Source: a virus. From it: DNA of 64,000 nucleotides. The stretch spans positions 34,574 through 98,573 of IMG/VR virus record IMGVR_UViG_3300045988_140174; one strand, written 5' to 3'. Positions within the stretch are counted from its first letter, which is position 1; each line of letters opens with the position of its first letter. Position numbers and translations under genes: made by a program. This document shows positions 14,929-28,058 of the stretch, piece by piece. Below the pieces are notes generated by a model. The model was given only the letters and a program-made list of their open reading frames with translations. It had not been told where the DNA came from and made no database searches.

Positions 14929-15993
14929 TTATAACTGTTTGCCCTTGTTTTTAGCATTACGGCATTTTTTACAAATACTATAATAACCATCTTTGCTAGT
15001 TTTATTTTTGCTAAAATATTTATTATGTGCTAATTTAATTTGCCCACAGCGACTACATTTTTTATATTTACCTTTTGCTTTATGTAAATAATAATCATAT
15101 AGGTATTGGTCTTCAGCCGCAGAGGCGATTAATTTTGGAATTTTATTGCGCCATAAACTAGAAATATATTCTAAACTATGAGTAATATTAAATTCCTCTT
15201 GAATTTTCTTTTGAATGTCTATATTCTATAATCCATCAATTTTATATTCAACTATTCTATCATATAAGGGATAATCTTTAAGAGCAATGGTACATAAATT
15301 ATCGAAATCTTCCATAATATACCATAAATCTCTTTCAAAATCTCCCCAACTATCTTGCTTTAAACGAGAATAATTACATAAAATTGCAGAACATACTCTA
15401 GGGTCTAAGAGTGAAACGCCATCCGGAATTGGATAACCATCATCATCAAAAATACAAGTCGTGTCCTCTAATGGAATAAAATTTCTTGAACGAGTAATTT
15501 TAGTCATAACAATTGGACGACGAACTGCATTTTTAATAACATACTAATCTTTACGCATTTCAATAATAGCACGTTTAATTATAAATGCCTCGCGTCCTTC
15601 GCTAACTCGTAATTTGGCTTCCCAAGTAGTAATGGCGTCTCTTAACTATTTTAAATGAGGTATTTCTTCTATATCTTTTTTAGTAATTGTAATTTTAGGC
15701 TAAAATATTGTATTTTTATTTTCAGTAATTAAATTATAAATTCCATCTTCGCCATTCTCAAATTGGGAAACAAGACCTTCAAAAGATGTTTCACGTTTAT
15801 TAACTGTTGCCATACGATTATCAGTTAATAATTTACGCTCCTTTTTCTCTTGTTTCTCCATACAAAGAATGATATAGTCCCCTAATATTTCTAAATATCG
15901 AGGAGAGGGGTCTGGGGTTTCCTCTAATATTTTCTTGACTAATTCATTTCTTTCTTCTGGAGTTTGTAAGGAATAATCTAATTTTATCATCAT
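14929..15993 (-). CDS. hypothetical protein with C-terminal zinc ribbon (CSRCGQ...CKKC), 354 aa, 3 in-frame TAG
   Basis: track ORFs 15700..15993 and 15226..15507 in same frame, continued through TAGs to TAA at 14929. Confidence 0.5.
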
Positions 15994-16018: not shown

Positions 16019-16047
16019 ATTATACAAAAAATTTTTCCAGGTGTCAA
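16019..16047 (-). promoter_or_regulatory. sigma70-type promoter for the minus-strand late operon
   Basis: TTGACA-17-TGTATAAT on the minus strand. Confidence 0.6.
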
Positions 16048-16102
16048 ATTTTAATAAATGCATTTAAAAAATTTTTAAACGATACTATTAATTGGAAAAA
16101 AT

Positions 16103-16131
16103 TTGACAATAAAAAAAATTTTTTGTATTAT
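16103..16131 (+). promoter_or_regulatory. sigma70-type promoter, divergent from 16019..16047
   Basis: TTGACA-17-TATTAT with TG extension. Confidence 0.55.
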
Positions 16132-17912: not shown

Positions 17913-18206
17913 TTCTTTTTACCGTTATCTGAATTGAAAAAAGTTTTGGTGAGAGTTTGTACCAGCCAAACAAAAAAATAAAAAGCAAAAAAAATTTTTT
18001 CCCGAAACCCACCCCCCGGTCGGTTTTTATCTGAGAAAAAATCTGAACACTATCGAGACCTTCTTGGGCTTGGCGCACGCGGAAAGGCTAGACCATCCCC
18101 AATACAGCCCCTCAACTCGCAGGACCGCGAATGGCTGTCGCGGTCCTCATTCGCAATAAATACAAACTCCACAAAAAATCTCTCGCAAATTTGTGTATTC
18201 TGCTAA

Positions 18207-18235
18207 TAGACACGCATCCTGAAACGTGGTATAAT
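18207..18235 (+). promoter_or_regulatory. promoter (TAGACA-17-TGGTATAAT)
   Basis: extended -10 and spacing; 26 nt upstream of RBS AAAGGAGG. Confidence 0.55.
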
Positions 18236-18260
18236 AGCACTATCAAAGGAGGAATAGTCT

Positions 18261-18356
18261 ATGTCTATCATCTACAAAGTCGTGCGCTTCATCACCGCGG
18301 TCGCTGTTGTCGCGGGCACTGGCATCTTGATGTGCCTCATCTGCCTCCCTCACTGA
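18261..18356 (+). CDS. 31-aa hydrophobic peptide (MSIIYKVVRFITAVAVVAGTGILMCLICLPH)
   Basis: own promoter, perfect RBS AAAGGAGG, own terminator overlapping the stop codon. Confidence 0.6.
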   Translation: MSIIYKVVRFITAVAVVAGTGILMCLICLPH

Positions 18357-18368
18357 GGGAGGTTTTTT
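18344..18368 (+). terminator. intrinsic terminator
   Basis: CCTCCCTCACTGAGGGAGG + TTTTTT. Confidence 0.75.
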
Positions 18369-18380
18369 GTTGCCCTAAGA

Positions 18381-19170
18381 TTGTTAAAAATTTAACGATG
18401 TAGCAAGATTGTTAAAAGATTAACAATGTAGTGAGATTGTTAAAAATTTAACAATCACTCAACCAAGAGAGGACAAGGACACGCACGGCACAGTGGACAA
18501 GGCAGAGCGAGCCAATGAGCGAGCGACCAACAGACAAAGAGAACAACACACAACACAACACAATGATAGATACATTGTTAATGTATTAACAATGTAGTAT
18601 AGTAGTATGGTATGGTAGTAGGTGGGGTAGGGGTGGGCTATGGGTAGTGGGTGGTGGAGGAGAGTAGACCAACAATAAGAGAATAGAACGCGCTTCCCAC
18701 CGGTCGGCTCACCAGGAACCGCGCACAACAAATCTAATGTAAGTATTCTATTTCTCTTTTGGGTTCATCATCGTTAACGGCCCTAATCGCCCAAGAATAA
18801 GCCCTCGCACAATTGCCAAACAACACAGCGGGGCAGGCGCTGAACCGCGCGCATCCCGCAACGCACAACTCTCACAGAGGAGCGAGCAAGATTGTTAAAA
18901 GTTTAACAATGTGAGAGCCAAGAGCAAGAGAGTAAAGAGTGCGCTTGCACAGGTAGCAAGGAGGATACACACGGCACAGTTGATACATTCGCTGACCGAG
19001 CAAGATTGTTAAAAAATTCACAATGTGTGGATGTGGTGAAGTCGCTGTTTAATTGTTAAAAATTTCACATTCGCTGTTGGATGCCGAACACGGTCGCAAC
19101 GCCCCAGACTTCACCACAGTAAAGTGGTAAAGAAAAAAAATTGCAAATGCGATTGTTAAAATAATCACAA
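18381..19170. repeat. array of 8 copies of the 18-bp palindrome TTGTTAAAA-N-TTTAACAA (ninth copy at 20313..20330)
   Basis: sites at about 18381, 18409, 18438, 18576, 18893, 19007, 19053 and 19154; dyad symmetry suggests binding sites for a dimeric protein. Confidence 0.7.
18459..18668. other. strand-asymmetric low-complexity region: T-depleted stretch, (CA)n-like run, C-free G-rich stretch with G-quadruplex potential
   Basis: 18459..18563 has only 2 T; 18594..18668 is composed of G/T/A; GGTGGGGTAGGGGTGGGCTATGGGTAGTGGGTGGTGG. Confidence 0.6.
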
Positions 19171-19212
19171 TCTCTGTCCCGAAAATAAATAGGTTATTTT
19201 TGAAAAAACCTC

Positions 19213-19241
19213 TTGACAAATTGCCCTATGTGTGCTACAAT
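19213..19241 (+). promoter_or_regulatory. promoter TTGACA-17-TGCTACAAT
   Basis: consensus -35, TG-extended -10. Confidence 0.6.
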
Positions 19242-19271
19242 GATTACAGTAAAACAAAGGAGGACGATACA

Positions 19272-19508
19272 ATGTCTAACATCTATGGAGTCTGCTACAC
19301 CACCAAAGAGCCTGTTGTCTACAACAGAGGGACACAGTGGGAGAAAACCTGTTCCGATTTCCTGTTCGTTCAGGCAAACAAGGACAATGGCACAGAGCTG
19401 GTGGACAAACTGAACGCTATGCTCGCCGAGGGTGTGGAAAAGTACGAACTGCTGGACATGACCAAGATTGACCATTTCTATCTTGACAAGTCCGAGGAAA
19501 TGTATTAA
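19272..19508 (+). CDS. hypothetical protein, 78 aa
   Basis: RBS AAGGAGGACGATACA-ATG; track ORF 19200 starts upstream of the promoter, so the internal Met is used. Confidence 0.6.
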   Translation: MSNIYGVCYTTKEPVVYNRGTQWEKTCSDFLFVQANKDNGTELVDKLNAMLAEGVEKYELLDMTKIDHFYLDKSEEMY

Positions 19509-19521
19509 GGAGGAACTGACA

Positions 19522-19710
19522 ATGACACGCACTATCGCTAATACCTACATCTGTATCAACAACGAGGGACAGACGCTCTCCATCATCGCCCGCACGGGCA
19601 ACGAAGCCCACAACATCGCAATAGGGTTTTTGCGGAAAGCCAACATCGTGAGCGTTCGTCGTGTATTCAAGTCCGGCAAGCTGGGCAAGGAAATTCTGAA
19701 AATTAAATAA
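19522..19710 (+). CDS. hypothetical protein, 62 aa
   Basis: RBS AAGGAGGAACTGACA-ATG. Confidence 0.6.
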   Translation: MTRTIANTYICINNEGQTLSIIARTGNEAHNIAIGFLRKANIVSVRRVFKSGKLGKEILKIK

Positions 19711-19716
19711 AATAAA

Positions 19717-19740
19717 CAGGGCGCAAGCCCTGTTTTTTTT
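19717..19740 (+). terminator. intrinsic terminator (GCAA tetraloop)
   Basis: CAGGGCGCAAGCCCTG + T8; identical hairpin repeated at 19992. Confidence 0.8.
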
Positions 19741-19750
19741 GAAAAAACTA

Positions 19751-19779
19751 TTGACAAATCCCGAAATAGGTGTTATACT
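19751..19779 (+). promoter_or_regulatory. promoter TTGACA-17-TATACT
   Basis: consensus spacing. Confidence 0.6.
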
Positions 19780-19811
19780 AAATACAGAAATTAAGAAATG
19801 AGGTAAACACC

Positions 19812-19991
19812 ATGAACACTAATTCTAATCTTTCCAACACCGCTTTCCAGTCCCTGCTCCGCACAATCCGCAACTATCGCGAAACATCTCGCCCGTTCTC
19901 CGCAATCACTACTTACAATGAGTTTTTTGACCGCATGAGCCAGGAACAGCGGGAAGAAGCGTATGAAGCACTCACCGGTAAATTGAATTAA
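19812..19991 (+). CDS. hypothetical protein, 59 aa
   Basis: RBS GAAATGAGGTAAACACC-ATG; below the ORF-track size cutoff. Confidence 0.5.
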   Translation: MNTNSNLSNTAFQSLLRTIRNYRETSRPFSAITTYNEFFDRMSQEQREEAYEALTGKLN

Positions 19992-20018
19992 CAGGGCGCA
20001 AGCCCTGTTATTTTTTTT
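19992..20018 (+). terminator. intrinsic terminator
   Basis: CAGGGCGCAAGCCCTG + T-run. Confidence 0.8.
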
Positions 20019-20038
20019 ATAAAATGCGAAAAAAACTA

Positions 20039-20067
20039 TTGACAAACACAAATAAGCGTGTTATAAT
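20039..20067 (+). promoter_or_regulatory. promoter TTGACA-17-TATAAT
   Basis: perfect consensus hexamers. Confidence 0.65.
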
Positions 20068-20099
20068 GAATACAGAAATTAAGAAATGAGGTACACAAA

Positions 20100-20288
20100 A
20101 TGAAGAACATCTATGAAATCGAGAACATCATCGACGAAATCCCCGCTGATGACTGGGCTGGCATTTGTAATTTGATGGACTACTACTATCAGTCGAATTT
20201 CTCCGCTGACGCTGAACAGAGACTGGCAAGGGCAATCGCTCCTTACGGCTTGACCGCAGAGGAAATCCTGACCTGGGACGCTGAATAA
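20100..20288 (+). CDS. hypothetical protein, 62 aa
   Basis: RBS GAAATGAGGT; same leader (AATACAGAAATTAAGAAATGAGGT) as gene 19812. Confidence 0.6.
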   Translation: MKNIYEIENIIDEIPADDWAGICNLMDYYYQSNFSADAEQRLARAIAPYGLTAEEILTWDAE

Positions 20289-20325
20289 GCGTCCTATTTT
20301 TTTGCTGTTGGATTGTTAAAATTTT

Positions 20326-20398
20326 AATGAGCATCGTCGCGCTCATCAGGCACGTGGCGCCCCGAAATATTATACCACAGCAGTCCACCAGTTGTCAA
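20326..20398 (-). promoter_or_regulatory. antisense-oriented promoter (TTGACA-18-TGGTATAAT on minus strand) firing toward a hairpin + T-run (20326..20345)
   Basis: rc of 20369..20398 gives a consensus promoter; ATGAGC-N8-GCTCAT + TAAAATTTT downstream on the minus strand. Confidence 0.5.
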
Positions 20399-20456
20399 GA
20401 GAAAAATGCGAAAATTTCGCACAAAATTTGCTATCCCGATTTGTATAGTTTGCCAA

Positions 20457-20485
20457 TAGACAAAATAAAATAAGCGTGTTATAAT
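20457..20485 (+). promoter_or_regulatory. promoter TAGACA-17-TGTTATAAT
   Basis: extended -10. Confidence 0.5.
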
Positions 20486-20518
20486 GAATACAACAAAACA
20501 ACAAAGGAGATACACAAC

Positions 20519-20827
20519 ATGATTAACATTCGTTCTATCCGCAAGCTGGGCAACAATGACGGGCTGACCCTCAAAATGGGCAAAAAGGTAAACTATAAAT
20601 CCGGCTGGCAGGTTGCCACAGAGGGCATCGAGTGCAAGACCGCACAGGAAGCCATTGACGCGGTGAGAGACTACGGCGGAAATTGTGGCGTGTGGTTCAG
20701 CGAGGGCATTTACTACATCGACAAGAGCAAGCGCGTGGCGACAAAGTGTGAAGCTATGGAAATCGGCAAAGCGTGCAATCAAATTTCCGTGCTGAAATGG
20801 GCGACTATGACGCTTGCCTACTGTTAA
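20519..20827 (+). CDS. hypothetical protein, 102 aa
   Basis: RBS AAAGGAGATACACAAC-ATG. Confidence 0.65.
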   Translation: MINIRSIRKLGNNDGLTLKMGKKVNYKSGWQVATEGIECKTAQEAIDAVRDYGGNCGVWFSEGIYYIDKSKRVATKCEAMEIGKACNQISVLKWATMTLAYC

Positions 20828-20832
20828 AATAA

Positions 20833-20858
20833 TAGGGCGAAAGCCCTATTTTTTTTTT
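20833..20858 (+). terminator. intrinsic terminator (GAAA tetraloop)
   Basis: TAGGGCGAAAGCCCTA + T10. Confidence 0.8.
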
Positions 20859-20879
20859 GAAAAAATTTTGAAAAAGGTA

Positions 20880-20908
20880 TTGACAAATCCCGAAATAGGT
20901 GCTATAAT
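20880..20908 (+). promoter_or_regulatory. promoter TTGACA-17-TATAAT
   Basis: consensus. Confidence 0.65.
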
Positions 20909-20939
20909 TAAACCATCAAATGAAGGAGGTCGCAAGACT

Positions 20940-21104
20940 ATGATGACTACTGTAAAGACTCCTGACGGCGTGCCCCCTGTTAAGCCTCTGTCCTATGTGC
21001 TGGGCGATGACTGGACGTACCTTTACAGCGATAGCTGGAAAGGCGTTGAATTCGACGTTCACGCGTGTATGAACGGCGAGGTTGTCGCAGTAGTCGAGGG
21101 TTAA
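20940..21104 (+). CDS. hypothetical protein, 54 aa
   Basis: RBS AAGGAGGTCGCAAGACT-ATG; the track ORF N-terminus would include the promoter. Confidence 0.55.
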   Translation: MMTTVKTPDGVPPVKPLSYVLGDDWTYLYSDSWKGVEFDVHACMNGEVVAVVEG

Positions 21105-21132
21105 TCCCTCGGTTATTTTTTTTATTTTTTTT
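21095..21132 (+). terminator. intrinsic terminator overlapping the stop codon
   Basis: CGAGGGTTAATCCCTCG + T-rich run. Confidence 0.6.
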
Positions 21133-21142
21133 GAAAAAACTA

Positions 21143-21171
21143 TTGACAAAATGCGCCTACGGTGCTATAAT
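21143..21171 (+). promoter_or_regulatory. promoter TTGACA-17-TATAAT
   Basis: consensus. Confidence 0.65.
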
Positions 21172-21201
21172 TAAACCATCAAAAGAGAGGAGCTAAACGC
21201 T

Positions 21202-21393
21202 ATGACAAATTTTGAACAGTATCTCGAAAACCTGATGGGTATGAAGAAAGCGGAAATCATCAACGAGGGCATCACCTGGGGCATCTGGGCGAACACCGAG
21301 GGCAACAAAGCCGAGCTGATGAAATGGAAAAAAGTGCTGCTGGCGCGTTCCCTTGCCGATAGGCTGGAAAGACTGGAAAGGCGGGGCTACTAA
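21202..21393 (+). CDS. hypothetical protein, 63 aa
   Basis: RBS AGAGAGGAGC. Confidence 0.6.
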   Translation: MTNFEQYLENLMGMKKAEIINEGITWGIWANTEGNKAELMKWKKVLLARSLADRLERLERRGY

Positions 21394-21395
21394 GA

Positions 21396-21420
21396 CAAGG
21401 GCGAAAGCCCTTGTTTTTTT
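21396..21420 (+). terminator. intrinsic terminator
   Basis: CAAGGGCGAAAGCCCTTG + T7. Confidence 0.8.
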
Positions 21421-21472
21421 ATATATGGCATTATGCCCATAATTCGGTTGAAAATTTTGGTGATTTTGCCTA

Positions 21473-21567
21473 TTGACATTCTGCCCCATTTGTGTTATAC
21501 TCGGTCGCGCGCCCACGGCCCTGATGCGCGGAAATTCCATTATACCACAGCCCAGCCAATTTGTCAA
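21473..21567. promoter_or_regulatory. composite element: plus promoter (TTGACA 21473-17-TATACT 21496), GC hairpin (21502..21531), face-to-face minus promoter (TTGACA-17-TGGTATAAT, 21539..21567 rc)
   Basis: both promoters have consensus hexamers and 17-bp spacers; they converge on a 30-nt GC stem-loop. Confidence 0.6.
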
Positions 21568-21626
21568 GCATTTTGTGTTCGGTATTTTCAACAATTTTTT
21601 GTCCCGAAATTTGTGCAATTTGACGG

Positions 21627-21655
21627 TTGACAACGCCCAGTAGGTATGCTATACT
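21627..21655 (+). promoter_or_regulatory. proximal promoter TTGACA-17-TGCTATACT
   Basis: extended -10. Confidence 0.6.
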
Positions 21656-21685
21656 TATACCATCAATTAAAGGAGGTCATTCACA

Positions 21686-21861
21686 ATGGCTACTATCGCA
21701 ATCCTCGCAATCCTCGCCCTCGCTGGCTTCGCTGGCGTTCAGTGTGTCGGCGGGGATATGGTTTATCGTCAGACGCACGACTGGCACTTCCTCGTTGGCT
21801 CTATCCTATATGGCGTTGCCTGTATCGGTCTGATGCGCTTCGTGTTCAATATGGGGTGGTA
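21686..21861 (+). CDS. small membrane protein, 58 aa, 2 transmembrane helices
   Basis: RBS AAAGGAGGTCATTCACA-ATG. Confidence 0.6.
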
Positions 21862-21863
21862 AT

Positions 21864-22187
21864 ATGGAAAACTACACTATGTCGAACCATCTGACAGAGG
21901 AGCGGGCTAACCGGCTCGCCCTCTTACAGGAATACCTCGGATATTCCGACCGCGTGATGATTGAGGTCATCGACCAACGCCAAACCGCCCGTCTGCGTTT
22001 GCTCTCGACTGGCATTATCTTGGTGCTGGACTTATATGAGAATTTCATCATCACCGCATACCCCGCAACCTTTGAACGGGCTGTCGCTATATACAAGAGT
22101 GCAGGCAAAAACCGCTTACCTCAACAGTTGGTCAAGCGCATCCGCAAGAATGAGGAACGCCACCCCGAATTTTATGTAGTAAAGTAG
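21864..22187 (+). CDS. hypothetical protein, 107 aa
   Basis: start overlaps the upstream stop (TAATATG). Confidence 0.6.
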   Translation: MENYTMSNHLTEERANRLALLQEYLGYSDRVMIEVIDQRQTARLRLLSTGIILVLDLYENFIITAYPATFERAVAIYKSAGKNRLPQQLVKRIRKNEERHPEFYVVK

Positions 22188-22193
22188 AAAATT

Positions 22194-22227
22194 GGGGCTT
22201 GACAACAAGCCCCATTTCTGCTATAAT
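22194..22227 (+). promoter_or_regulatory. promoter whose -35 (TTGACA 22199) sits in the loop of hairpin GGGGCTTG-ACAA-CAAGCCCC; -10 TATAAT 22222
   Basis: hairpin immediately 3' of the upstream gene; -10 follows after an 18-nt spacer. Confidence 0.55.
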
Positions 22228-22258
22228 GAGTATAACAAAACAAGGGAGGACGAAAAAA

Positions 22259-22588
22259 ATGTCTGATGTAATTATCGCTGGTTTGCTTATGGCTGGTCTG
22301 GTGGGTCTGCCTATTGGCTTGCTTTTTGCCATAGGGAGTGATACATGGTGGGGCAAGGTGCTGTCGTTCGTTATCTTTTGTTCCATCTTCTTCGGCTTCG
22401 GTGCTATGATAGGACAAGACCACGTCAACGATTGCAACACTTTCAACAATGGCGTGTGCGTTCAGTGTGGCGGTGAATACCGCATGAGTGGCGCAACTCG
22501 CACCCGTATGGGAAGCGAAACATTTTACTACACCTGTGAAAACTGCGGTTGGACTATTGAGACTAACGGTCTGATGAACAAACACTAA
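22259..22588 (+). CDS. membrane protein with C-terminal zinc ribbon, 109 aa
   Basis: RBS AAGGGAGGACG; two transmembrane helices, then CVQCGG...CENCG. Confidence 0.6.
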   Translation: MSDVIIAGLLMAGLVGLPIGLLFAIGSDTWWGKVLSFVIFCSIFFGFGAMIGQDHVNDCNTFNNGVCVQCGGEYRMSGATRTRMGSETFYYTCENCGWTIETNGLMNKH

Positions 22589-22601
22589 GGAGGGAAACAA
22601 A

Positions 22602-22829
22602 ATGGAAATTATTAAAGCCCCTATCTATGTCAAAATGACAGAGGAGGAACGGAAAACCCTGCGTGACGCCTATGACATTCTGAATGAATTGTATGACATT
22701 ATCCACGATAATGACTGCGAGTATGTGAGCGATACTTGCGGAAATGGCTATGACAGAGTGGACGTCGCGCTTACGGCTAATGTGCTTCAAATGCTTGCCC
22801 CCACTGAAAAAGTGGAAATCGGCAAATGA
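22602..22829 (+). CDS. hypothetical protein, 75 aa (paralog of 22845..23075)
   Basis: RBS AAGGAGGGAAACAAA-ATG. Confidence 0.6.
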   Translation: MEIIKAPIYVKMTEEERKTLRDAYDILNELYDIIHDNDCEYVSDTCGNGYDRVDVALTANVLQMLAPTEKVEIGK

Positions 22830-22844
22830 AAGGAGGTAAAACAA

Positions 22845-23075
22845 ATGAACATCATTACCTCAAATGTTCAGGTTCAACTCACCCAAGAGGAAAAGGACAA
22901 ACTTCAAGACGCCCGCGAGGTCATTTCTCACCTGTTTGATTTGATGTATGACTACGAACAAGAATACGCTATTTCCAACATCGGCGAAGAGTATTCTATG
23001 AGCCAAGTCCGTGATACCTCAAACCTGCTGGCCGCGCTTATCGGGTCTGATAAAATGCGGTTAGAAAATAAATAA
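22845..23075 (+). CDS. hypothetical protein, 76 aa (paralog of 22602..22829)
   Basis: RBS AAAGGAGGTAAAACAA-ATG; shared pattern ..T.EE...L.DA.....L..L.D.D.EY. Confidence 0.6.
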   Translation: MNIITSNVQVQLTQEEKDKLQDAREVISHLFDLMYDYEQEYAISNIGEEYSMSQVRDTSNLLAALIGSDKMRLENK

Positions 23076-23080
23076 AAAAA

Positions 23081-23105
23081 TGTGGGAGAAATCCCACATT
23101 TTTTA
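23081..23105 (+). terminator. intrinsic terminator
   Basis: TGTGGGAGAAATCCCACA + T6, abutting the next -35. Confidence 0.75.
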
Positions 23106-23134
23106 TTGACAACAACCAAGAGGTGTGGTATAAT
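23106..23134 (+). promoter_or_regulatory. promoter TTGACA-17-TGGTATAAT
   Basis: consensus. Confidence 0.65.
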
Positions 23135-23164
23135 AAATACATCAAATAAAGGAGGATACCCCGA

Positions 23165-23371
23165 ATGACTATTTTTGAAATCAGAACTGAACTGGCCGAC
23201 CGTTATTGCGTAAAGCCTGACAAGGTAAGATGTTCCAACTGTGAATATTGGGGTTATAACCGCGGTAAGGTAATGAACAGTATGGGCGAGAGTAAATGTA
23301 TGAAGCGAAAGAACGAGCGCACCTGGTGTCGTCAATTCTGCCGGGGTTTCGTTCCAAAATCGGGAAAGTAA
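23165..23371 (+). CDS. Cys-rich small protein, 68 aa
   Basis: RBS AAAGGAGGATACCCCGA-ATG; CSNCEYW...CMKRK..WCRQFC. Confidence 0.6.
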   Translation: MTIFEIRTELADRYCVKPDKVRCSNCEYWGYNRGKVMNSMGESKCMKRKNERTWCRQFCRGFVPKSGK

Positions 23372-23376
23372 ATCAT

Positions 23377-23412
23377 TTGGGCTGGATGAACAAAAATCCA
23401 GCCCAATTTTTG
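23377..23412 (+). terminator. intrinsic terminator
   Basis: TTGGGCTGGATGAACAAAAATCCAGCCCAA + T-run. Confidence 0.75.
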
Positions 23413-23425
23413 TATAATTTTCCAC

Positions 23426-23479
23426 TTGACATTTTCGGCCGCGCGCTCACGATTGTGGCGCCCGGCATTTTTGTCAATA
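23426..23479. promoter_or_regulatory. degenerate copy of the promoter/hairpin/antisense-promoter element (TTGACA 23426; hairpin about 23436..23466; inverted TTGACA 23471..23479 without a good -10)
   Basis: hairpin loop TCACGATTGTG is shared with the copy at 31537..31561. Confidence 0.45.
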
Positions 23480-23525
23480 GGCATACTTCACAAATTTTTC
23501 GCCGCAATTTTGTGCATTTTGACGA

Positions 23526-23554
23526 TTGACTTCTATCCCGTAATACGGTATAAT
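23526..23554 (+). promoter_or_regulatory. proximal promoter TTGACT-17-TATAAT
   Basis: leader GGTATAATGGCTATACTGAAACAAGGAGGTAAG is shared with the 27195 gene. Confidence 0.6.
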
Positions 23555-23583
23555 GGCTATACTGAAACAAGGAGGTAAGAACA

Positions 23584-23802
23584 ATGGAGTTGAAGAAAGC
23601 GTATCAGATGGTGTTCAGCGACCTGCGCGAATGCCCTATGTTCCAAGGGCGTTATGATGCCATCAACGGCAATCCCTATTATATGTCCGGCATTGAGACG
23701 GTTATGGAAGTCATCGCCAATCGCGCCTATAATGATGATTTCGCCGAGCGGTTCTCCAATGAATTTACCGACAATATGTTAAGGAGTAGAAAAAATGTCT
23801 GA
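23584..23802 (+). CDS. hypothetical protein, 72 aa
   Basis: RBS AAGGAGGTAAGAACA-ATG. Confidence 0.65.
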   Translation: MELKKAYQMVFSDLRECPMFQGRYDAINGNPYYMSGIETVMEVIANRAYNDDFAERFSNEFTDNMLRSRKNV

Positions 23803-24166
23803 TTTTCAGAAGCAAACCCTCAAAAGGTATGGGCACAATTTCCTCATTGTGTGCGGTTTCGGTTTGCTGGTGTATGGTATGATAAAGTCCACACTGGTGC
23901 TATACGCAACAGTTGCGATTATGGTACTAACTATCGTAGGCGCGTGTATATGGTCTATGGTAGACTCTGTTCGCTGGGACTGGCGGTTGCGCGGTAAGCT
24001 AACAGAGAGCGAGTATAAGGCATACCAGTCCTGTGAAAGAGTTTTCGGCTGGCGTGATGATAAATACCTGCCGACTGAGGAACAAATTTACGCTATGGCG
24101 ATGGAAACATCTATTGACAAAGATGTGCTATGGAGTATGTATAACAAACTGACGGAGGGGCATTAA
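23795..24166 (+). CDS. membrane protein, 123 aa
   Basis: overlaps the upstream gene by 8 nt; two transmembrane helices. Confidence 0.6.
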   Translation: MSDFQKQTLKRYGHNFLIVCGFGLLVYGMIKSTLVLYATVAIMVLTIVGACIWSMVDSVRWDWRLRGKLTESEYKAYQSCERVFGWRDDKYLPTEEQIYAMAMETSIDKDVLWSMYNKLTEGH

Positions 24167-24252
24167 CGCCCCTCTTGTTGGGTTTAGTTCTGACTAACTA
24201 CACGGAACAAAAAATTAGTCCTGTGAGAATTTAACTACAACAAAAATTTTTC

Positions 24253-24281
24253 TTGACATTTTCAATTAAATGTGTTATTAT
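24253..24281 (+). promoter_or_regulatory. promoter TTGACA-17-TATTAT
   Basis: consensus -35. Confidence 0.5.
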
Positions 24282-24312
24282 TATAATAGAAATTAAGAAA
24301 GGAATTGATACT

Positions 24313-24513
24313 ATGAACATCCCCTCTAAGCTGAAACAAGTTGCTAATGAGTTGGAGCAACTGTCAATCGAAATCGCCGCAGAAAAGAAAAACCTGTCCA
24401 ACAGTGAGGACAAGCAAGCCGCTCAAAATTTGAGCGATGATTTGTTTGAAATCCAGTCCCATTTACGTACATCTATGTACTGGGTGGCGGAAGCTATGTT
24501 TGGGGAGGAGTGA
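24313..24513 (+). CDS. hypothetical protein, 66 aa
   Basis: RBS GAAAGGAATTGATACT-ATG; this leader sequence recurs at 29013 and 30202. Confidence 0.6.
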   Translation: MNIPSKLKQVANELEQLSIEIAAEKKNLSNSEDKQAAQNLSDDLFEIQSHLRTSMYWVAEAMFGEE

Positions 24514-24989
24514 TGACTATGAATGCTATTATTCTATTCATTGTTTGCACCGCTGTGAATGTGGTGCTGTCCACCATCAAATCCATTTTGACTGTCAAAG
24601 GCAATAAATGGGTTGCCGCTGGTATCAATGCGCTGACTTATGGCTTCTATTCCTATGTCATTATCCTGACCAACATTGACGGCGTTTCTACGCTGGCAAA
24701 GATGGGCATTACCGCCGCCTGTAATTTCGTTGGTGTGCTGGCGGTCAAATGGGTTGAGGAGCTGGCGCGCAAAGAAAAACTGTGGAAGATTGAAATGACT
24801 GTTCCCACTAAATACCGAGCCGCTGTGGATTTTGACCTGCGAGACATTCCACATTCATACATTGAGATTAGCAACAAACACACGCTATTCAATTTCTATT
24901 GTGCCACGCAAGCCGAGAGCAAAAAGGTCAAGGACATTGTGGCGCAGTATGGCGCAAAATATTTCGTAGCAGAAAGCAAAAATTTATAA
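24510..24989 (+). CDS. membrane protein, 159 aa (N-terminal 3 transmembrane helices)
   Basis: RBS GGGGAGGAG; overlapping start. Confidence 0.6.
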   Translation: MMTMNAIILFIVCTAVNVVLSTIKSILTVKGNKWVAAGINALTYGFYSYVIILTNIDGVSTLAKMGITAACNFVGVLAVKWVEELARKEKLWKIEMTVPTKYRAAVDFDLRDIPHSYIEISNKHTLFNFYCATQAESKKVKDIVAQYGAKYFVAESKNL

Positions 24990-24997
24990 AATAGGGG

Positions 24998-25026
24998 TTG
25001 ACAAATCAGTCCCTCTGTGTTAGAAT
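24998..25026 (+). promoter_or_regulatory. promoter TTGACA-17-TGTTAGAAT
   Basis: extended -10. Confidence 0.55.
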
Positions 25027-25056
25027 GGTATCATCAAATAAGGGAGGACAACAAAA

Positions 25057-25206
25057 ATGGAAATGATTAAAGTTTTCAATGACCACACCGGCGAAATCCT
25101 CGAAAAGACGTTCGTAGACCCCGCAGACGCGGACGACTTCGAGTTCATTCTCGACTTCCTTGAAGCGAGATACGAACGCTACCACAACGGCGAACAAATC
25201 TATTAA
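25057..25206 (+). CDS. acidic small protein, 49 aa
   Basis: RBS AAGGGAGGACAACAAAA-ATG. Confidence 0.55.
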   Translation: MEMIKVFNDHTGEILEKTFVDPADADDFEFILDFLEARYERYHNGEQIY

Positions 25207-25219
25207 GGAGGTTGCGACA

Positions 25220-25417
25220 ATGGAGACCAAAGATGTGTACTACAACGTTGAGTGGTGGGGCATAACTACTTGGGGCGAACGCTTCACTAATAGCGAGTAG
25301 TTCAAGAACGAAAACGAAACACTGTCGTTCATCGCAAATGACCTGGCAAATGACCCGCTTGTTCGCGGAGCGACCTTCACCACACACAAAACCATCGTAT
25401 TTAAGAGAGGAGAATAA
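25220..25417 (+). CDS. hypothetical protein, 65 aa if the in-frame TAG at 25298..25300 is read through (26 aa if it is a stop)
   Basis: RBS AAGGAGGTTGCGACA-ATG; the frame stays open after the TAG and ends at TAA overlapping the next RBS. Confidence 0.4.
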
Positions 25418-25418
25418 A

Positions 25419-25625
25419 ATGATTACTATTCTGATAACGGTTATTGCCCTCGGCATTTCGTTCCTGTTTACTGCTGGGCTGGTCTGGCTTCTCTGCTGGC
25501 TTCTCCCTGCTATCGGCATCGCGTCCATCGGCTCTATCGCCATCGTGTTTTCGTGGAAACTGGCGTTGGTGATTTGGCTCATTATCGCGCTCCTGCGCTC
25601 CATCTTCGTTAGCGTTAAGAGTTAA
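25419..25625 (+). CDS. small membrane protein, 68 aa
   Basis: RBS AAGAGAGGAGAATAAA-ATG; entirely hydrophobic. Confidence 0.6.
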   Translation: MITILITVIALGISFLFTAGLVWLLCWLLPAIGIASIGSIAIVFSWKLALVIWLIIALLRSIFVSVKS

Positions 25626-25673
25626 TTGAAAAATCTCCCAAATTTGGGAAATTTTTTTTGTCTATTTTACCTA

Positions 25674-25769
25674 TTGACAAACACCCCCCATTTGTGGTAT
25701 ACTCGGCCGAGCGCCCACGGCCCTGGCGCTCGAAATTTCTATTATACACCCTGCCAGCAATTTTGTCAA
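25674..25769. promoter_or_regulatory. composite element: plus promoter (TTGACA 25674-17-TATACT 25698), hairpin (25706..25732), face-to-face minus promoter (25741..25769 rc, TTGACA-17-TATAAT)
   Basis: consensus hexamers on both strands; minus-promoter spacer identical to the copy at 28167..28195. Confidence 0.6.
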
Positions 25770-25849
25770 TAGATAAATTGAACAAATTTACCCAAGCGCG
25801 CATCCCGAAAGTTTGTGCAAAATGACCAAGAGCAAAACCGAAAAAACTG

Positions 25850-25878
25850 TTGACAAATTGCGTTTTATCCTGTATAAT
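25850..25878 (+). promoter_or_regulatory. proximal promoter TTGACA-17-TATAAT
   Basis: consensus. Confidence 0.65.
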
Positions 25879-25909
25879 AGCATTACAATCAAGAAAGGAA
25901 GTTGATACA

Positions 25910-26356
25910 ATGACTATTTATCTGGACATGGACGGCACTATCGCGGGGATTTACAACGACCCTAACTGGTTGGCAAAGCTGGAAGCCTCTGACGTGAGTG
26001 TATATGCGGACGCCTGCCCGCTTGTTCACTTCTCCACCCTCGCCCGCTATCTGAACCGCTTACAGGCGCGGGGCTACCGCATCGGCATCATTAGCTGGCT
26101 GTCCAAGAGCGGAACGGATAAGTTCAACGCCGAGGTTGCCGAGGTCAAGCGCGAATGGCTGGCAAAGCATCTCCACAGCGTTCAGTGGGACGAAATTCAT
26201 ATTGTCCCCTATGGCGTTCCCAAGTCCAACTGCGCGACCTGCCCCAACGCGATTTTGTTCGATGACGAACAGCGCAACCTCAACGAGTGGATGGCAAACA
26301 CCCATAATATGGCGTACAATGCTGACCTCCTGATGGAAATTTTGCGAAACCTGTAA
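25910..26356 (+). CDS. HAD-superfamily phosphatase, probable 5'(3')-deoxyribonucleotidase-like, 148 aa
   Basis: motif I YLDMDGTIA (DxDGT) and C-terminal ILFDDE; RBS AGAAAGGAAGTTGATACA-ATG. Confidence 0.65.
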   Translation: MTIYLDMDGTIAGIYNDPNWLAKLEASDVSVYADACPLVHFSTLARYLNRLQARGYRIGIISWLSKSGTDKFNAEVAEVKREWLAKHLHSVQWDEIHIVPYGVPKSNCATCPNAILFDDEQRNLNEWMANTHNMAYNADLLMEILRNL

Positions 26357-26362
26357 AAAAAA

Positions 26363-26404
26363 TAGCAGACAGGGGTTGACAACCTCGCCCCTGTCTGCTA
26401 TAAT
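26363..26404 (+). promoter_or_regulatory. promoter with the -35 inside a hairpin loop (AGCAGACAGGGG-TTGACAACCTCG-CCCCTGTCTGCT) then TATAAT
   Basis: 12-bp stem; TTGACA 26376; TATAAT 26399. Confidence 0.6.
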
Positions 26405-26416
26405 ATGTAATGTAAT

Positions 26417-26462
26417 TAAGGTATGGGAAACGATGGTAAGCCCAACCAAGAGAAAAGGAGAA
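26417..26462 (+). promoter_or_regulatory. conserved 5' leader motif (copy 1)
   Basis: AAGGTATGGGAAACGATGGTAAGCCCAACCAAGAGAAAAGGAGAAA; near-identical copy at 27470..27520; contains a short upstream ORF. Confidence 0.5.
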
Positions 26463-26469
26463 ATGAACA

Positions 26470-27126
26470 ATGAAAAATATCTACTGCACGCTGGACACTG
26501 AAACGGTAGGCGGCGCGGCTCACCCCACGGGAATGTATAATGTGGGTGCGATTATCCACGACCGCAAGGGCGAAATCCTCGCCACCACGTCCCTGCTGGT
26601 GATGGAGCATTATGACGAAATCGCCCTCGATGGCTACGCCAAGAAGAATTTTCCGGTATATGCCGAACGGCTCAAAACTGGCGAAATCTCCGCTATCGCC
26701 ACGGAGCGCGAAGCCTATGAGGTAGTCAAAAACCTGTGCGACCATTACGGTGTCCGCTATGTGATGGCATACAATTCCGGTTTTGACTTCTGCAAGACCT
26801 GTTTCCGCGCCCTGCTGGATAATTTCGAGTTCATCGACCTGTATCTGATGGCACTGGAAACTATCACCCACAAAAAGTCCTATGCAGAATACTGCCGAGA
26901 GCATGGCAAGCGTTCCAAGAATGGCAAGACCTGTGCAACCTCTGTCGAAGCGGTGTATGGTTATCTCCACGATAACCCCGACTTTTCCGAAGAACACACC
27001 GCCCTGTCTGACGCTATGCAGGAAATGGAAATTTTCCTTGCCTGTCAGAAGATGCACAAGCGATACACCAAGAACGTCCACGCATGGGATGCGCCCTTTG
27101 AGGTAAAATGTTTTCCCAAGTTTTGA
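26470..27126 (+). CDS. DEDDh 3'-5' exonuclease (DnaQ/RNase T-like), 218 aa
   Basis: Exo I CTLDTETVG, Exo II YVMAYNSGFDFCKT, Exo III YGYLHDNPDFSEEHTALSDAMQ. Confidence 0.75.
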   Translation: MKNIYCTLDTETVGGAAHPTGMYNVGAIIHDRKGEILATTSLLVMEHYDEIALDGYAKKNFPVYAERLKTGEISAIATEREAYEVVKNLCDHYGVRYVMAYNSGFDFCKTCFRALLDNFEFIDLYLMALETITHKKSYAEYCREHGKRSKNGKTCATSVEAVYGYLHDNPDFSEEHTALSDAMQEMEIFLACQKMHKRYTKNVHAWDAPFEVKCFPKF

Positions 27127-27130
27127 GAAT

Positions 27131-27164
27131 GGGGCTTGACAGCCCCTTTCTCATGTGGTATAAT
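27131..27164 (+). promoter_or_regulatory. promoter with the -35 in a hairpin loop (GGGGC-TTGACA-GCCCC) then TGGTATAAT
   Basis: TTGACA 27136, TATAAT 27159. Confidence 0.6.
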
Positions 27165-27194
27165 GACTATACTGAAACAAGGAGGTAAGCGCAA

Positions 27195-27407
27195 ATGCCT
27201 AAGCAGGTTCTTTTCAAGAGCGACCATTCAGATGGCGTTCAGGCAGGCATTCAGGAAGATAACGGAAATATTATCTGTGCCTGTTGCGGTGGAGTGTTTG
27301 AAGCCGAGGAAGCTACCATTCTCCATGAGTTCGACTATTGGGTTGACTTTTCGGAATGGATTGGCGACCCTGACCTGACTGAGTATCGCAAGCACGATAC
27401 CCCGTAA
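27195..27407 (+). CDS. hypothetical protein, 70 aa
   Basis: RBS CAAGGAGGTAAGCGCAA-ATG; CACCGG motif. Confidence 0.6.
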   Translation: MPKQVLFKSDHSDGVQAGIQEDNGNIICACCGGVFEAEEATILHEFDYWVDFSEWIGDPDLTEYRKHDTP

Positions 27408-27416
27408 AAAAAGTTT

Positions 27417-27455: not shown

Positions 27456-27469
27456 AACATTACAAATTC

Positions 27470-27520: not shown

Positions 27521-27522
27521 CT

Positions 27523-28053: not shown

Positions 28054-28058
28054 CAAAA

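What the first reader, a model, noticed from the sequence alone, without database searches (positions are those of the whole stretch)
18381..19170. Cluster of nine 18-bp palindromes TTGTTAAAA-N-TTTAACAA at the entry of the GC-rich block
Eight near-perfect copies lie within 800 bp (three of them 28 bp apart) and one more at 20313. Dyad symmetry with half-site variants (TTCACAA, TAATCACAA) is typical of binding sites for a dimeric regulator or of a partition centromere (parS-like). No cognate protein is obvious in the window. The AbrB-like and RHH proteins are candidates for the regulator case, and the location beside the first early promoters suggests a master operator or immunity region.
Basis: seen in the sequence. 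Interest (0 to 1): 0.7.

Follow-up and report, generated by a model that had tools for sequence, protein, structure and literature searches.

The report
Phage array of host Rex operators
A large virus of human-gut Clostridia carries, at the head of its early genes, nine DNA sites that match the docking sequence of the host's NADH-sensing repressor Rex, so the virus probably reads or hijacks the host's redox regulator using DNA alone.

Summary
Nine copies of TTGTTAAAA-N-TTTAACAA lie at the stated coordinates, eight of them within 790 bp, against about one expected by chance. The motif equals the published clostridial Rex operator consensus TTGTTAANNNNTTAACAA. Its 22-bp extended form sits directly upstream of adhE (three times), ldh, a NuoE/HydC-type ferredoxin gene and an aldehyde dehydrogenase in gut and rumen Clostridia genomes, which is the classic Rex regulon. 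No Rex, ParB, HTH, RHH or AbrB protein was detected in the window, and no array-bearing viral contig encodes Rex, so the binder is most likely host Rex (about 0.8).

The half-site arms are more conserved than the DNA between sites. Distant relatives with unrelated sequence keep such clusters at the same genomic position. Unrelated phage contigs carry similar arrays, some interleaved with LexA-like or CodY-like boxes.

The boxes mostly sit in gaps between a terminator and the next promoter, not over core promoters. My best reading is a Rex landing pad that acts mainly as a titration sink (0.45). The main rival is a redox gate on early development (0.3). parS, iteron origin and a phage immunity operator are not supported. 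I found no published precedent for Rex-box arrays in phages.

The parts
18381..18398 (.). Rex box 1, TTGTTAAAAATTTAACGA (13/14 to consensus)
   Evidence: It begins 18 bp after the terminator at 18343-18363.
18409..18426 (.). Rex box 2, TTGTTAAAAGATTAACAA (14/14)
   Evidence: It is 28 bp from box 1.
18437..18454 (.). Rex box 3, TTGTTAAAAATTTAACAA (14/14). It lies inside the perfect 22-mer GATTGTTAAAAATTTAACAATC at 18435-18456.
18575..18592 (.). Rex box 4, TTGTTAATGTATTAACAA (14/14). It overlaps a weak promoter-like site, TTGTTA-17-TATAGT (18575-18603), that points into the G-rich tract.
18892..18909 (.). Rex box 5, TTGTTAAAAGTTTAACAA (14/14)
19006..19023 (.). Rex box 6, TTGTTAAAAAATTCACAA. It is a mixed site: the right half is the general Firmicutes Rex half-site TTGTGAA.
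19053..19070 (.). Rex box 7, TTGTTAAAAATTTCACAT (12/14)
19153..19170 (.). Rex box 8, TTGTTAAAATAATCACAA (12/14). Its centre is about -87 relative to the start site of the promoter at 19213.
20313..20330 (.). Rex box 9, TTGTTAAAATTTTAATGA (12/14). It begins 17 bp after the terminator at 20274-20296. Its centre is about +40 of the minus-strand consensus promoter at 20398->20369, and it lies 126 bp upstream of the -35 of the promoter at 20457.
18343..18363 (+). Intrinsic terminator (9-bp GC-rich stem plus T-run) that closes the mini-unit P18207 / 31-aa ORF 18261-18356. The array starts right after it.
18455..18572 (+). T-poor spacer (7 T in 118 nt, ACAAC repeats). Role unexplained.
18593..18665 (+). 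C-free, G/T-rich spacer (1 C in 73 nt) with a G-quadruplex-type motif at 18624-18644. Role unexplained.
19114..19132 (+). TAAAGTGGTAAAG direct repeat. Related TAAAG-type repeats accompany Rex-box arrays in L001, L014, L024 and L040.
19213..19241 (+). First early promoter of the GC-rich block (TTGACA-17-TACAAT), driving the 78-aa ORF 19272-19508
20369..20398 (-). Consensus minus-strand promoter (TTGACA-18-TATAAT) that reads through box 9, antisense to gene 20100-20288

Best explanation
The palindromes are operators for the host's redox-sensing repressor Rex. Eight of them form a dense, non-coding array with no consensus promoter inside it. The array lies in a transcriptionally silent gap between a terminator (18343-18363) and the first promoter of the early-gene block (19213). 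A ninth box lies in the next such gap.

Proposed mechanism: host Rex dimers load onto these high-quality sites when NADH/NAD+ is low and leave when NADH rises. Most boxes overlap no promoter, and the phage encodes no Rex. I therefore think the array's main effect is to soak up Rex as a DNA decoy. One phage genome holds about a third as many boxes as the 27 sites predicted for a whole host genome, and replication multiplies them. Host NADH-recycling fermentation genes (adhE, ldh, hydrogenase) would then be derepressed during infection. Boxes 8 and 9, and possibly box 4, would add local NADH-responsive control of P19213, of the antisense promoter P20398 and of a weak promoter-like site.

Shown: the sites exist and match the Rex operator. 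The same 22-mer sits at Rex-regulon genes in gut and rumen Clostridia. The half-site arms are under selection. The position is conserved in distant relatives. No phage-encoded binder was detected.

Inferred: that Rex actually binds, that binding responds to NADH, and that titration has a physiological effect.
For: Identity of the motif:
- The consensus TTGTTAANNNNTTAACAA is the published clostridial Rex box.
- Four window sites match it 14/14, and the variant halves (TTCACAA) are the other known Rex half-site.
- The exact 22-mer GATTGTTAAANNTTTAACAATC occurs at only 19 loci in 185,579 species genomes, mostly Clostridia MAGs. There it sits directly upstream of adhE three times, ldh, a NuoE/HydC-like 2Fe-2S gene and an aldehyde dehydrogenase.
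- In 7 close relatives the arm columns are invariant in 93.8% of cases, against 79.5% between sites and 78% for the central 4 nt (p = 1e-4).
- One-sided arm changes outnumber pairable double changes, 636 to 60, so the constraint is on protein half-sites rather than an RNA stem.

No phage-encoded binder:
- tblastn and an HMM search for Rex found nothing in the window or in the 68 motif-bearing viral loci.
- Only one, unrelated, contig in the viral collection encodes Rex.
- No DNA-binding Pfam domain was found in the window ORFs.

Decoy-like geometry:
- Six of the eight array boxes are more than 100 bp from any consensus promoter.
- Across 323 distinct phage sites, half have no consensus promoter within -200..+100, and the core promoter zone is depleted of sites.
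- 24% of sites lie within 90 bp downstream of a terminator-like hairpin, against 5.9% of random positions.
- Arrays are dense: 28-bp spacing here, 29 bp in L093 and 37-41 bp in L077.
- Other lineages interleave Rex boxes with LexA-like boxes (L008) or CodY-like boxes (L068), and these too are operators of global repressors.
- A whole Caproicibacterium genome has 27 predicted Rex sites (PMC9600882), against 9 in this 2-kb stretch.
- Engineered transcription-factor decoy arrays are known to work (PMC7826281, PMC3322331).
Against: - No binding data exist and the host is unknown.
- A pure decoy could sit anywhere in the genome, yet the arrays keep the same position at the head of the early region in distant relatives.
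- In some lineages boxes overlap the -35 (L009, L037, L040, L052) or lie at +10..+40. That is classical operator geometry.
- The spacers are also conserved among close relatives and have odd composition, which hints at additional functions.
- The viral loci were found by searching for the motif itself, so the logo and counts from them are biased. The A1 conservation test and the bacterial scan do not share this bias.
- Only 64 kb of a genome of roughly 130-200 kb was examined for a binder. The viral-collection scan for Rex uses short peptide patterns and could miss a divergent homologue.
Confidence: 0.45

Rival explanations
1. Same binder (host Rex), different purpose: a redox gate or switch. 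Rex bound at low NADH/NAD+ forms a repressive block at the head of the early region. The block would act on transcription, on readthrough or on replication. Early development, or exit from a dormant carrier state, would then proceed only when host NADH rises. This parallels phi29 using host Spo0A and GIL01 using host LexA.
For: - The arrays keep their position at the start of the early block in relatives whose DNA there is not homologous.
- In L001 a box precedes each of the first four early promoters.
- In other lineages boxes overlap the -35 or lie at +10..+40.
- Box 9 is at about +40 of a consensus minus-strand promoter, and box 4 overlaps a weak promoter-like site.
- Precedents exist for host-factor sites controlling phage development: PMC2731898 and PMC4551915.
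- LexA-like and CodY-like boxes in sister arrays fit a 'stress leads to induction' logic.
Against: - In this window about 35 consensus sigma-70 promoters in the early block carry no box, so Rex cannot silence the block by classical occlusion.
- The array follows a strong terminator and contains no consensus promoter.
- Sites are depleted over core promoters overall.
- No integrase or plasmid-maintenance gene was seen in the window.
Confidence: 0.3
2. The sites are bound by some other dimeric protein with Rex-like specificity. It could be a phage regulator encoded outside the window, or another host factor such as a CRP/FNR-type protein. The Rex box contains a TGTKA-N6-TMACA core that resembles the CRP motif. 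On this view the array would be a conventional phage operator cluster.
For: - Only 64 kb of the genome was inspected.
- Most small ORFs have no recognisable family.
- The preference for extended flanks (aGA...TCt) goes beyond the published 18-bp Rex consensus.
- Three Flavobacteriaceae hits show that the 22-mer also occurs outside Clostridia.
Against: - The identical 22-mer, flanks included, lies at adhE, ldh and hydrogenase-type genes in Clostridia.
- Arrays occur in phage lineages that share no universal protein family.
- Both known Rex half-site variants are used and mixed within sites.
- No HTH, RHH, AbrB or cNMP-binding domain was detected in the window.
Confidence: 0.15
3. The array is a cis-acting structural element of the phage chromosome: a parS-like centromere, an iteron replication origin, or a packaging or terminus signal. 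On this view the match to Rex is coincidental.
For: - The array is a clustered repeat in a non-coding region.
- The spacers are strand-asymmetric and G-rich, which could favour R-loops or G-quadruplexes.
- The array sits at the boundary of a compositionally distinct block.
Against: - No ParA, ParB, Rep or terminase gene lies nearby.
- The repeats are palindromes, not direct iterons.
- DnaA boxes occur at background frequency.
- There is no long AT-rich unwinding stretch.
- A coincidental 14/14 match to one specific host operator, extending to the 22-mer used at adhE and ldh, is very unlikely.
- In other lineages the boxes are dispersed singly between transcription units.
Confidence: 0.05
4. 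The palindromes act as RNA hairpins (processing or termination signals), or are selfish short repeats with no function.
For: - The region folds better than shuffled versions (z = -3.8), which is trivially expected for palindromes.
- In one Family XIII MAG the palindrome lies inside a repeated element found on three contigs.
Against: - One-sided arm changes vastly outnumber compensatory ones.
- The boxes lie mostly outside transcription units, after terminators.
- The arms are more conserved than the surrounding DNA.
Confidence: 0.03

Closest known systems
Rex operators (ROP / Rex boxes) of Clostridia, TTGTTAANNNNTTAACAA, upstream of adhE, ldh, crt-bcd and hydrogenase genes
   Same: The sequence is identical, including the extended 22-mer and the tolerated TTGTGAA half-site variant. 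It has dyad symmetry with a free central 4 nt.
   Different: Chromosomal boxes occur singly or in pairs and overlap, or lie just downstream of, the promoter they repress. Here there are eight in 790 bp on a phage, mostly far from any promoter, with no rex gene on the element.
Host Spo0A binding sites (0A boxes) in Bacillus phages phi29 and Nf (PMC2731898)
   Same: A phage with no repressor of its own carries multiple sites for a host global regulator in its early and replication regions, which ties its development to host physiology.
   Different: The regulator and signal differ: sporulation phosphorelay there, NADH/NAD+ here. 0A boxes overlap early promoters and origins, whereas most boxes here overlap neither in any recognisable way.
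LexA SOS boxes controlling tectivirus GIL01 (PMC4551915)
   Same: A host repressor, not a phage CI protein, occupies operators on the phage. Sister arrays (L008) also carry LexA-type boxes.
   Different: GIL01 has a few boxes within promoter P1 and needs the phage co-factor gp7. Here the array has many copies, lies outside promoters, and no co-factor has been identified.
Transcription-factor decoy / titration arrays (synthetic: PMC7826281, PMC3322331)
   Same: Tandem high-affinity sites without a regulated promoter, which could sequester a limiting regulator as copy number rises.
   Different: The cited cases are engineered decoy arrays. I found no reported case of a phage-borne decoy for a host metabolic repressor.
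parS centromeres and the iteron origins of plasmids and phage-plasmids
   Same: Clustered short repeats in a non-coding region, bound by dimers.
   Different: There is no ParA, ParB or Rep gene. The sequence is unrelated to parS. The repeats are palindromic rather than directly repeated iterons. DnaA boxes are not enriched.

Membership tests
Clostridial Rex operator (ROP) | 18-bp inverted repeat matching TTGTTAANNNNTTAACAA | tested here: met
   Four sites match 14/14, two match 13/14 and three match 12/14. There are 11 matches against 1.07 expected. The consensus comes from PMC9600882 and PMC4600107.
Clostridial Rex operator (ROP) | The same sequence is used upstream of NAD(H)-linked fermentation genes in the plausible host clade | tested here: met
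   The exact 22-mer lies next to adhE (L069, L070, L079), ldh (L080), a NuoE/HydC-like gene (L074) and an aldehyde dehydrogenase (L086) in Clostridia MAGs.
Clostridial Rex operator (ROP) | Constraint on the two half-sites with a free central spacer, and tolerance of T or G at position 5 | tested here: met
   Arm columns are invariant in 93.8% of cases, against 78-79.5% elsewhere. The logo shows the same pattern. There are 47 mixed T/G half-site boxes.
Clostridial Rex operator (ROP) | Operator overlaps or directly follows the promoter it represses | tested here: not met
   This holds for at most boxes 4 and 9. Six boxes are more than 100 bp from any consensus promoter, and sites are depleted over core promoters across all loci.
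Clostridial Rex operator (ROP) | Bound by Rex, with release by NADH | not testable with these tools
   Requires EMSA, DAP-seq or ChIP with host Rex in the presence and absence of NADH.
Clostridial Rex operator (ROP) | A Rex protein is available in the cell | tested here: inconclusive
   No Rex is encoded in the window, in the viral loci or on array-bearing viral contigs. The host is unidentified. The candidate host clades do carry Rex-type regulon sites.
parS / ParABS centromere | Cognate ParB (ParBc domain) and ParA encoded nearby; parS-type sequence | tested here: not met
   No ParB or ParA domain was found in the ORFs scanned. The motif differs from the chromosomal parS consensus TGTTNCACGTGAAACA, which I quote from general knowledge.
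Iteron-type replication origin | Directly repeated iterons, an adjacent initiator gene, an AT-rich unwinding element, often DnaA boxes | tested here: not met
   The repeats are palindromes. No Rep gene was found. DnaA boxes occur at background frequency. The spacers are 47% GC.
Phage immunity region (CI/Cro-type operators) | Operators flanked by divergent phage repressor genes with HTH domains, overlapping the early promoters | tested here: not met
   No HTH, RHH or AbrB ORF lies next to the array. The boxes do not overlap the consensus promoters.
Transcription-factor decoy array | Multiple high-affinity sites not coupled to a regulated promoter | tested here: met
   Eight boxes in 790 bp lie between a terminator and the next promoter. 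Sites are 4-fold enriched just downstream of terminator-like hairpins.
Transcription-factor decoy array | Measurable titration of the factor away from its chromosomal targets | not testable with these tools
   Requires reporter or RNA-seq experiments in a host.

The most novel reading that the evidence does not exclude
A widespread group of large phages of gut and rumen Clostridia carries promoter-less arrays of operators for host global repressors. Rex boxes are the common element, joined by LexA-type boxes in some lineages and CodY-like boxes in others. The arrays would act as DNA decoys: as the genome replicates they would strip these repressors from the chromosome and derepress fermentation, SOS and nutrient-acquisition regulons. 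That would be a host-takeover mechanism encoded purely in non-coding DNA.
Probability: 0.35. Interest if true: 0.9.

Novelty: new variant of a known kind. Interest (0 to 1): 0.78.

Why it matters
Rex links gene expression to the NADH/NAD+ ratio, which is the central variable of fermentative metabolism in gut anaerobes. A common human-gut phage lineage carries dense arrays of Rex operators, and no phage-encoded binder was detected. This implies that phages either sense the host's redox state or reprogram it by titrating the repressor.

Either outcome would be a new kind of phage-host metabolic coupling. It can be tested directly with a purified protein and an 800-bp DNA fragment. Sister arrays mix Rex boxes with LexA-like and CodY-like boxes, which suggests a general strategy of exploiting host global repressors through cis-DNA. 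Such arrays might also be useful as portable decoys for engineering Clostridia.

Tried and rejected
- **DNA similarity to isolated phages.** Nothing useful was found. The only hit was a two-box fragment in an unannotated faecal phage.
- **Rfam and tRNA scans of the window.** No hits.
- **Phage-encoded binder.** Pfam and PHROGs scans of neighbouring and early ORFs found no DNA-binding domain. The most widely shared early protein, g26470, is a DEDD-exonuclease-like protein (DTET motif, phrog_20187) and not a regulator.
- **Phage-encoded Rex.** Rejected by tblastn, an HMM search and a scan of the viral collection.
- **Origin of replication.** DnaA boxes occur at background frequency.
- **RNA structure.** The fold z-score is explained by the palindromes themselves, and covariation is absent.
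- **Fixed box-to-promoter geometry, as for a class-I-type activator.** No sharp preferred offset was found.
- **CIRCE, CtsR, cre, Fur, PerR and Spo0A motifs.** CtsR, cre, Fur, PerR and Spo0A are not enriched near the boxes; CIRCE gave too few hits to judge (3 of 6 against 0.6 expected).
- **Homology of the spacers to other lineages' arrays.** Only two short matches, both to L077.
- **Structural paper on T. maritima Rex.** It gave no usable information on operator flanks.

Full report
**Observation.** With up to three mismatches there are 20 strand-matches against 1.56 expected, and none of 100 shuffles reaches that number. Against the shorter consensus TTGTTAANNNNTTAACAA with up to two mismatches there are 11 matches against 1.07 expected. 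Nine of them fall in 18381-20330, and four are perfect. The symmetric motif extends to about 24 bp, aGATTGTTAAA-NN-TTTAACAATCt. Several copies share asymmetric flanks, which points to growth by local duplication.

**Setting.** The window comes from a large siphovirus of Firmicutes.
- A structural protein is 33-49% identical to proteins of Enterococcus EF1/VRE9 phages, gut phage Phass-1, Brevibacillus Sundance and Bacillus Tsamsa-like phages.
- An exact protein of the early block occurs on human-gut metagenome contigs of up to 197,687 bp.
- Late genes run leftward from a divergent promoter region at about 16.05-16.13 kb.
- A short AT-rich plus-strand operon occupies 16.16-17.83 kb.
- From about 18.0 to 33.5 kb the GC content rises from about 30% to 43-52%. 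This block holds dozens of small ORFs, and there are about 35 perfect or near-perfect sigma-70 promoters and many terminators.

The block opens with a mini-unit: a promoter at 18207, a 31-aa hydrophobic ORF at 18261-18356 and a terminator at 18343-18363. Then comes an 850-bp stretch with no credible ORF; relatives differ there by indels that include 1-bp ones. It holds eight boxes and ends at the first early promoter, 19213. The ninth box follows the terminator at 20274-20296.

**Identity of the motif.** TTGTTAANNNNTTAACAA is the published consensus of the Rex operator in Clostridiaceae (PMC9600882, PMC4600107). Rex is the NADH/NAD+-sensing repressor of fermentation genes. The window's variant halves (TTCACAA) match the other known Rex half-site, TTGTGAA. 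I then scanned one genome from each of 185,579 bacterial and archaeal species for the exact 22-mer GATTGTTAAANNTTTAACAATC. This gave only 19 loci, 14 of them from Clostridia MAGs of gut or rumen origin: Oscillospiraceae, Acutalibacteraceae, Butyrivibrio, Family XIII and unclassified Clostridia. In those MAGs single copies lie directly upstream of:
- bifunctional adhE, in three independent MAGs;
- ldh;
- a NuoE/HydC-type 2Fe-2S ferredoxin gene;
- an aldehyde dehydrogenase.

That is the canonical Rex regulon. The phage boxes, flanks included, are therefore the same sequence that plausible hosts use as Rex operators. Two further hits (L073, L077) are short phage-like contigs binned into MAGs, with 14 and 18 boxes. 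L073 encodes a homologue of the window's early gene 20519-20827, and L077 shares two spacer motifs with the window array.

**No phage-encoded binder detected.** I recalled the B. subtilis Rex sequence and verified it as PDB 2VT2. It gives no tblastn hit in the window or in the 68 motif-bearing viral loci. A five-species Rex HMM also finds nothing. A scan of 2.9 million viral contigs with the Rex alignment found one unrelated 21-kb contig. Pfam and PHROGs scans of the neighbouring ORFs, the larger ORFs and 100 small ORFs of the window found no HTH, RHH, AbrB, ParB or cNMP-binding domain. I put the probability that Rex binds at about 0.8. The remainder allows for a divergent phage protein encoded outside the window or another host factor. 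The box also contains a CRP-like TGTKA-N6-TMACA core.

**Selection and conservation.** Seven close relatives (88-98% identical) keep all eight array boxes. The half-site arm columns are invariant in 93.8% of cases. The figure is 79.5% for DNA between boxes and 78% for the central four bases (Fisher p = 1.2e-4). That is the pattern expected for TTGTTAA-N4-TTAACAA.

More distant relatives have late genes 65-77% identical to the window: L001/L014/L019/L060, L011, L008, L002 and L021. They lose detectable DNA homology to the right of window position 16120. They still carry clusters of the box 1.7-7 kb beyond that point, which is the equivalent position. The data show the opposite.

**A wider phenomenon.** A viral-collection scan with a 19-specified-base form of the motif returned 68 loci. 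At least ten distinct lineages carry arrays of 5-18 boxes. Arrays built from the TTGTGAA variant also exist: L089, L093 (five boxes at 29-bp spacing) and L096. Within boxes the two half-site types are freely mixed. One-sided arm changes outnumber pairable double changes, 636 to 60. This argues for protein half-site recognition rather than an RNA stem.

Boxes for other host global repressors co-localise with the Rex boxes.
- LexA 'Cheo' boxes (CGAACNNNNGTTCG) lie within 150 bp of a Rex box in 24 of 37 cases, against 3.4 expected.
- The L008 array interleaves about nine LexA-like boxes with ten Rex boxes.
- In L068 nearly every perfect Rex box has a CodY-like palindrome close by, AATTGTCWGACAATT or AATTTTCTGACAATT.
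- Other arrays contain further unassigned palindromes.
- The window's own array has no LexA or CodY box.

**Geometry.** Across 323 distinct phage boxes, half have no consensus promoter within -200..+100. Those that do lie mostly at -40 to -200. The core promoter zone is depleted, and no single offset dominates. A minority overlap the -35 (L009, L037, L040, L052) or sit at +10 to +40. Boxes are four-fold enriched within 90 bp downstream of terminator-like hairpins: 24% against 5.9% of random positions. The typical location is therefore the silent gap between one unit's terminator and the next unit's promoter. In the window:
- Boxes 1-3 start 18 bp after a terminator.
- Box 8 is centred at about -87 of P19213.
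- Box 9 starts 17 bp after a terminator and lies at about +40 of a consensus minus-strand promoter (20398->20369) that would make an antisense RNA.
- Box 4 overlaps a weak promoter-like site facing a G-rich tract.
- The roughly 35 strong promoters of the block have no box.

**Mechanism.** Shown: high-quality Rex operators, under selection, clustered at a conserved position, on a phage in which no Rex gene was detected. Inferred: host Rex dimers occupy them when NADH/NAD+ is low and leave when NADH rises, which is established Rex behaviour. Two consequences are plausible and are not mutually exclusive.

1. **Sink.** The boxes sit where they neither block nor are swept by transcription. They are denser and closer to consensus than many chromosomal sites. 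One genome carries nine, against 27 predicted in a whole Caproicibacterium genome. Replication would multiply them and titrate Rex, derepressing adhE, ldh and hydrogenase genes and so speeding NADH recycling. The presence of LexA-like and CodY-like boxes in sister arrays fits a common logic, because all three proteins are global repressors of resource-supplying regulons. Engineered decoy arrays are known to work (PMC7826281, PMC3322331).
2. **Gate.** By analogy with phi29/Nf and Spo0A (PMC2731898) and with GIL01 and LexA (PMC4551915), Rex occupancy at the head of the early region could delay early development or maintain a carrier state until the redox state changes. Positional conservation and the promoter-overlapping boxes in some lineages favour this. 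The unguarded promoters in this window argue against it.

I commit to the sink as the main role of the promoter-less array (0.45), with local control at boxes 8, 9 and possibly 4. The gate is at 0.30, another binder at 0.15, a structural cis-element (parS, origin or pac) at 0.05, and RNA hairpins or no function at 0.03.

**Comparison and novelty.** As a sequence, each box meets the tests for a clostridial Rex operator except the usual promoter-overlap geometry. Binding itself could not be tested. The array fails the tests for parS (no ParAB, different sequence), for an iteron origin (palindromes, no Rep, DnaA boxes at background, GC-rich spacers) and for a CI/Cro immunity region (no phage repressor). 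Phages that exploit host regulators through cis sites are known, so this is a new variant of a known kind. Three full-text searches found no report of Rex-box arrays, or of natural decoy arrays for host metabolic repressors, on phage genomes.

**Caveats.**
- There is no binding evidence.
- The host is unidentified.
- The viral loci were ascertained through the motif itself.
- Only 64 kb of the genome was inspected.
- The odd spacers remain unexplained: a T-poor stretch at 18455-18572, a C-free G-rich stretch at 18593-18665 with a G4-type motif, and TAAAG repeats.

Noticed in passing
window 18000-33500: This block has 43-52% GC inside a genome of about 30% GC. It holds about 35 perfect or near-perfect sigma-70 promoters (TTGACA-17-TGnTATAAT with an upstream GAAAAAAC tract) alongside many small ORFs of unknown function and many terminators. 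The layout resembles a host-takeover module of the SPO1 or T5 pre-early type.
   Followed up: partly
window 20398-20369, 21567-21539, 25769-25741, 28195-28167, 29936-29908 (minus strand): Five consensus promoters point against the direction of the early genes. They would produce antisense transcripts. Only the first has a Rex box, at about +40.
   Followed up: partly
window 18455-18665: The spacers have extreme strand asymmetry: 7 T in 118 nt, then 1 C in 73 nt. A G-quadruplex-type motif lies at 18624-18644, and a G4-type motif recurs at the equivalent position in several close relatives (L020, L031, L065). G-rich tracts also lie in or near arrays in L009, L048 and L056. Their function is unknown.
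   Followed up: partly
L008 200-1100 (reverse strand): The array contains about nine LexA 'Cheo'-type boxes (CGAACNNNNGTTCG) interleaved with ten Rex boxes. Across the viral loci, 24 of 37 LexA-type boxes lie within 150 bp of a Rex box, against 3.4 expected.
   Followed up: partly
L068 800-7000: Nearly every perfect Rex box has a 15-bp palindrome within about 40 bp, AATTGTCWGACAATT or AATTTTCTGACAATT. These resemble the CodY box AATTTTCWGAAAATT.
   Followed up: partly
L024 1-760; L064 4050-4350: Further unassigned palindromes recur inside Rex-box arrays: GTTAGTTAnnTAACTAAC (L024, L064), ACTTTAGCGCGCTAAAGT (L024) and CGAAAACGTTTTCG (L064).
   Followed up: no
window 19114-19132; L001 3209-3235; L014 6983-7010; L024 137-165: TAAAGnGnTAAAG-type direct repeats with an 8-bp period accompany the arrays in several lineages. 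The 8-mers GTGCTAAA and GCGTTAAA are 25-50 times enriched in array regions.
   Followed up: partly
L083 443, L084 5702, L086 2527 (one Eubacteriales Family XIII MAG): The 22-mer lies inside a repeated element flanked by cccggtggggctg ... cagccccatgcgccc, found on three contigs. This may be a small mobile or REP-like element that carries a Rex box.
   Followed up: no
window 18207-18363: A self-contained mini-unit sits immediately before the array: its own promoter, a 31-aa hydrophobic peptide (MSIIYKVVRFITAVAVVAGTGILMCLICLPH) and its own terminator. The unit is conserved in close relatives.
   Followed up: partly
window 15226-15990 (minus strand): Two small ORFs give weak matches to a PHROG annotated as sigma factor (phrog_5767). 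They lie at the start of the leftward late operon, beside the divergent promoters at 16019-16131.
   Followed up: no
window 26470-27126: A 218-aa early protein with an N-terminal DTET (DEDD exonuclease-like) motif, phrog_20187. Among the early-block proteins compared, it has homologues in the most array-bearing loci outside the close relatives (L010, L021, L027, L028, L034, L041, L057, L061, L068).
   Followed up: partly
window 60000-64000: This segment is extremely AT-rich (20-28% GC), well below the rest of the window.
   Followed up: no
L081, L082, L085 (Flavobacteriaceae MAGs): The same 22-mer is conserved between an aspartate-semialdehyde-dehydrogenase-like gene and a U32 peptidase gene in three Flavobacteriaceae genomes. 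The binding factor there is unknown.
   Followed up: no
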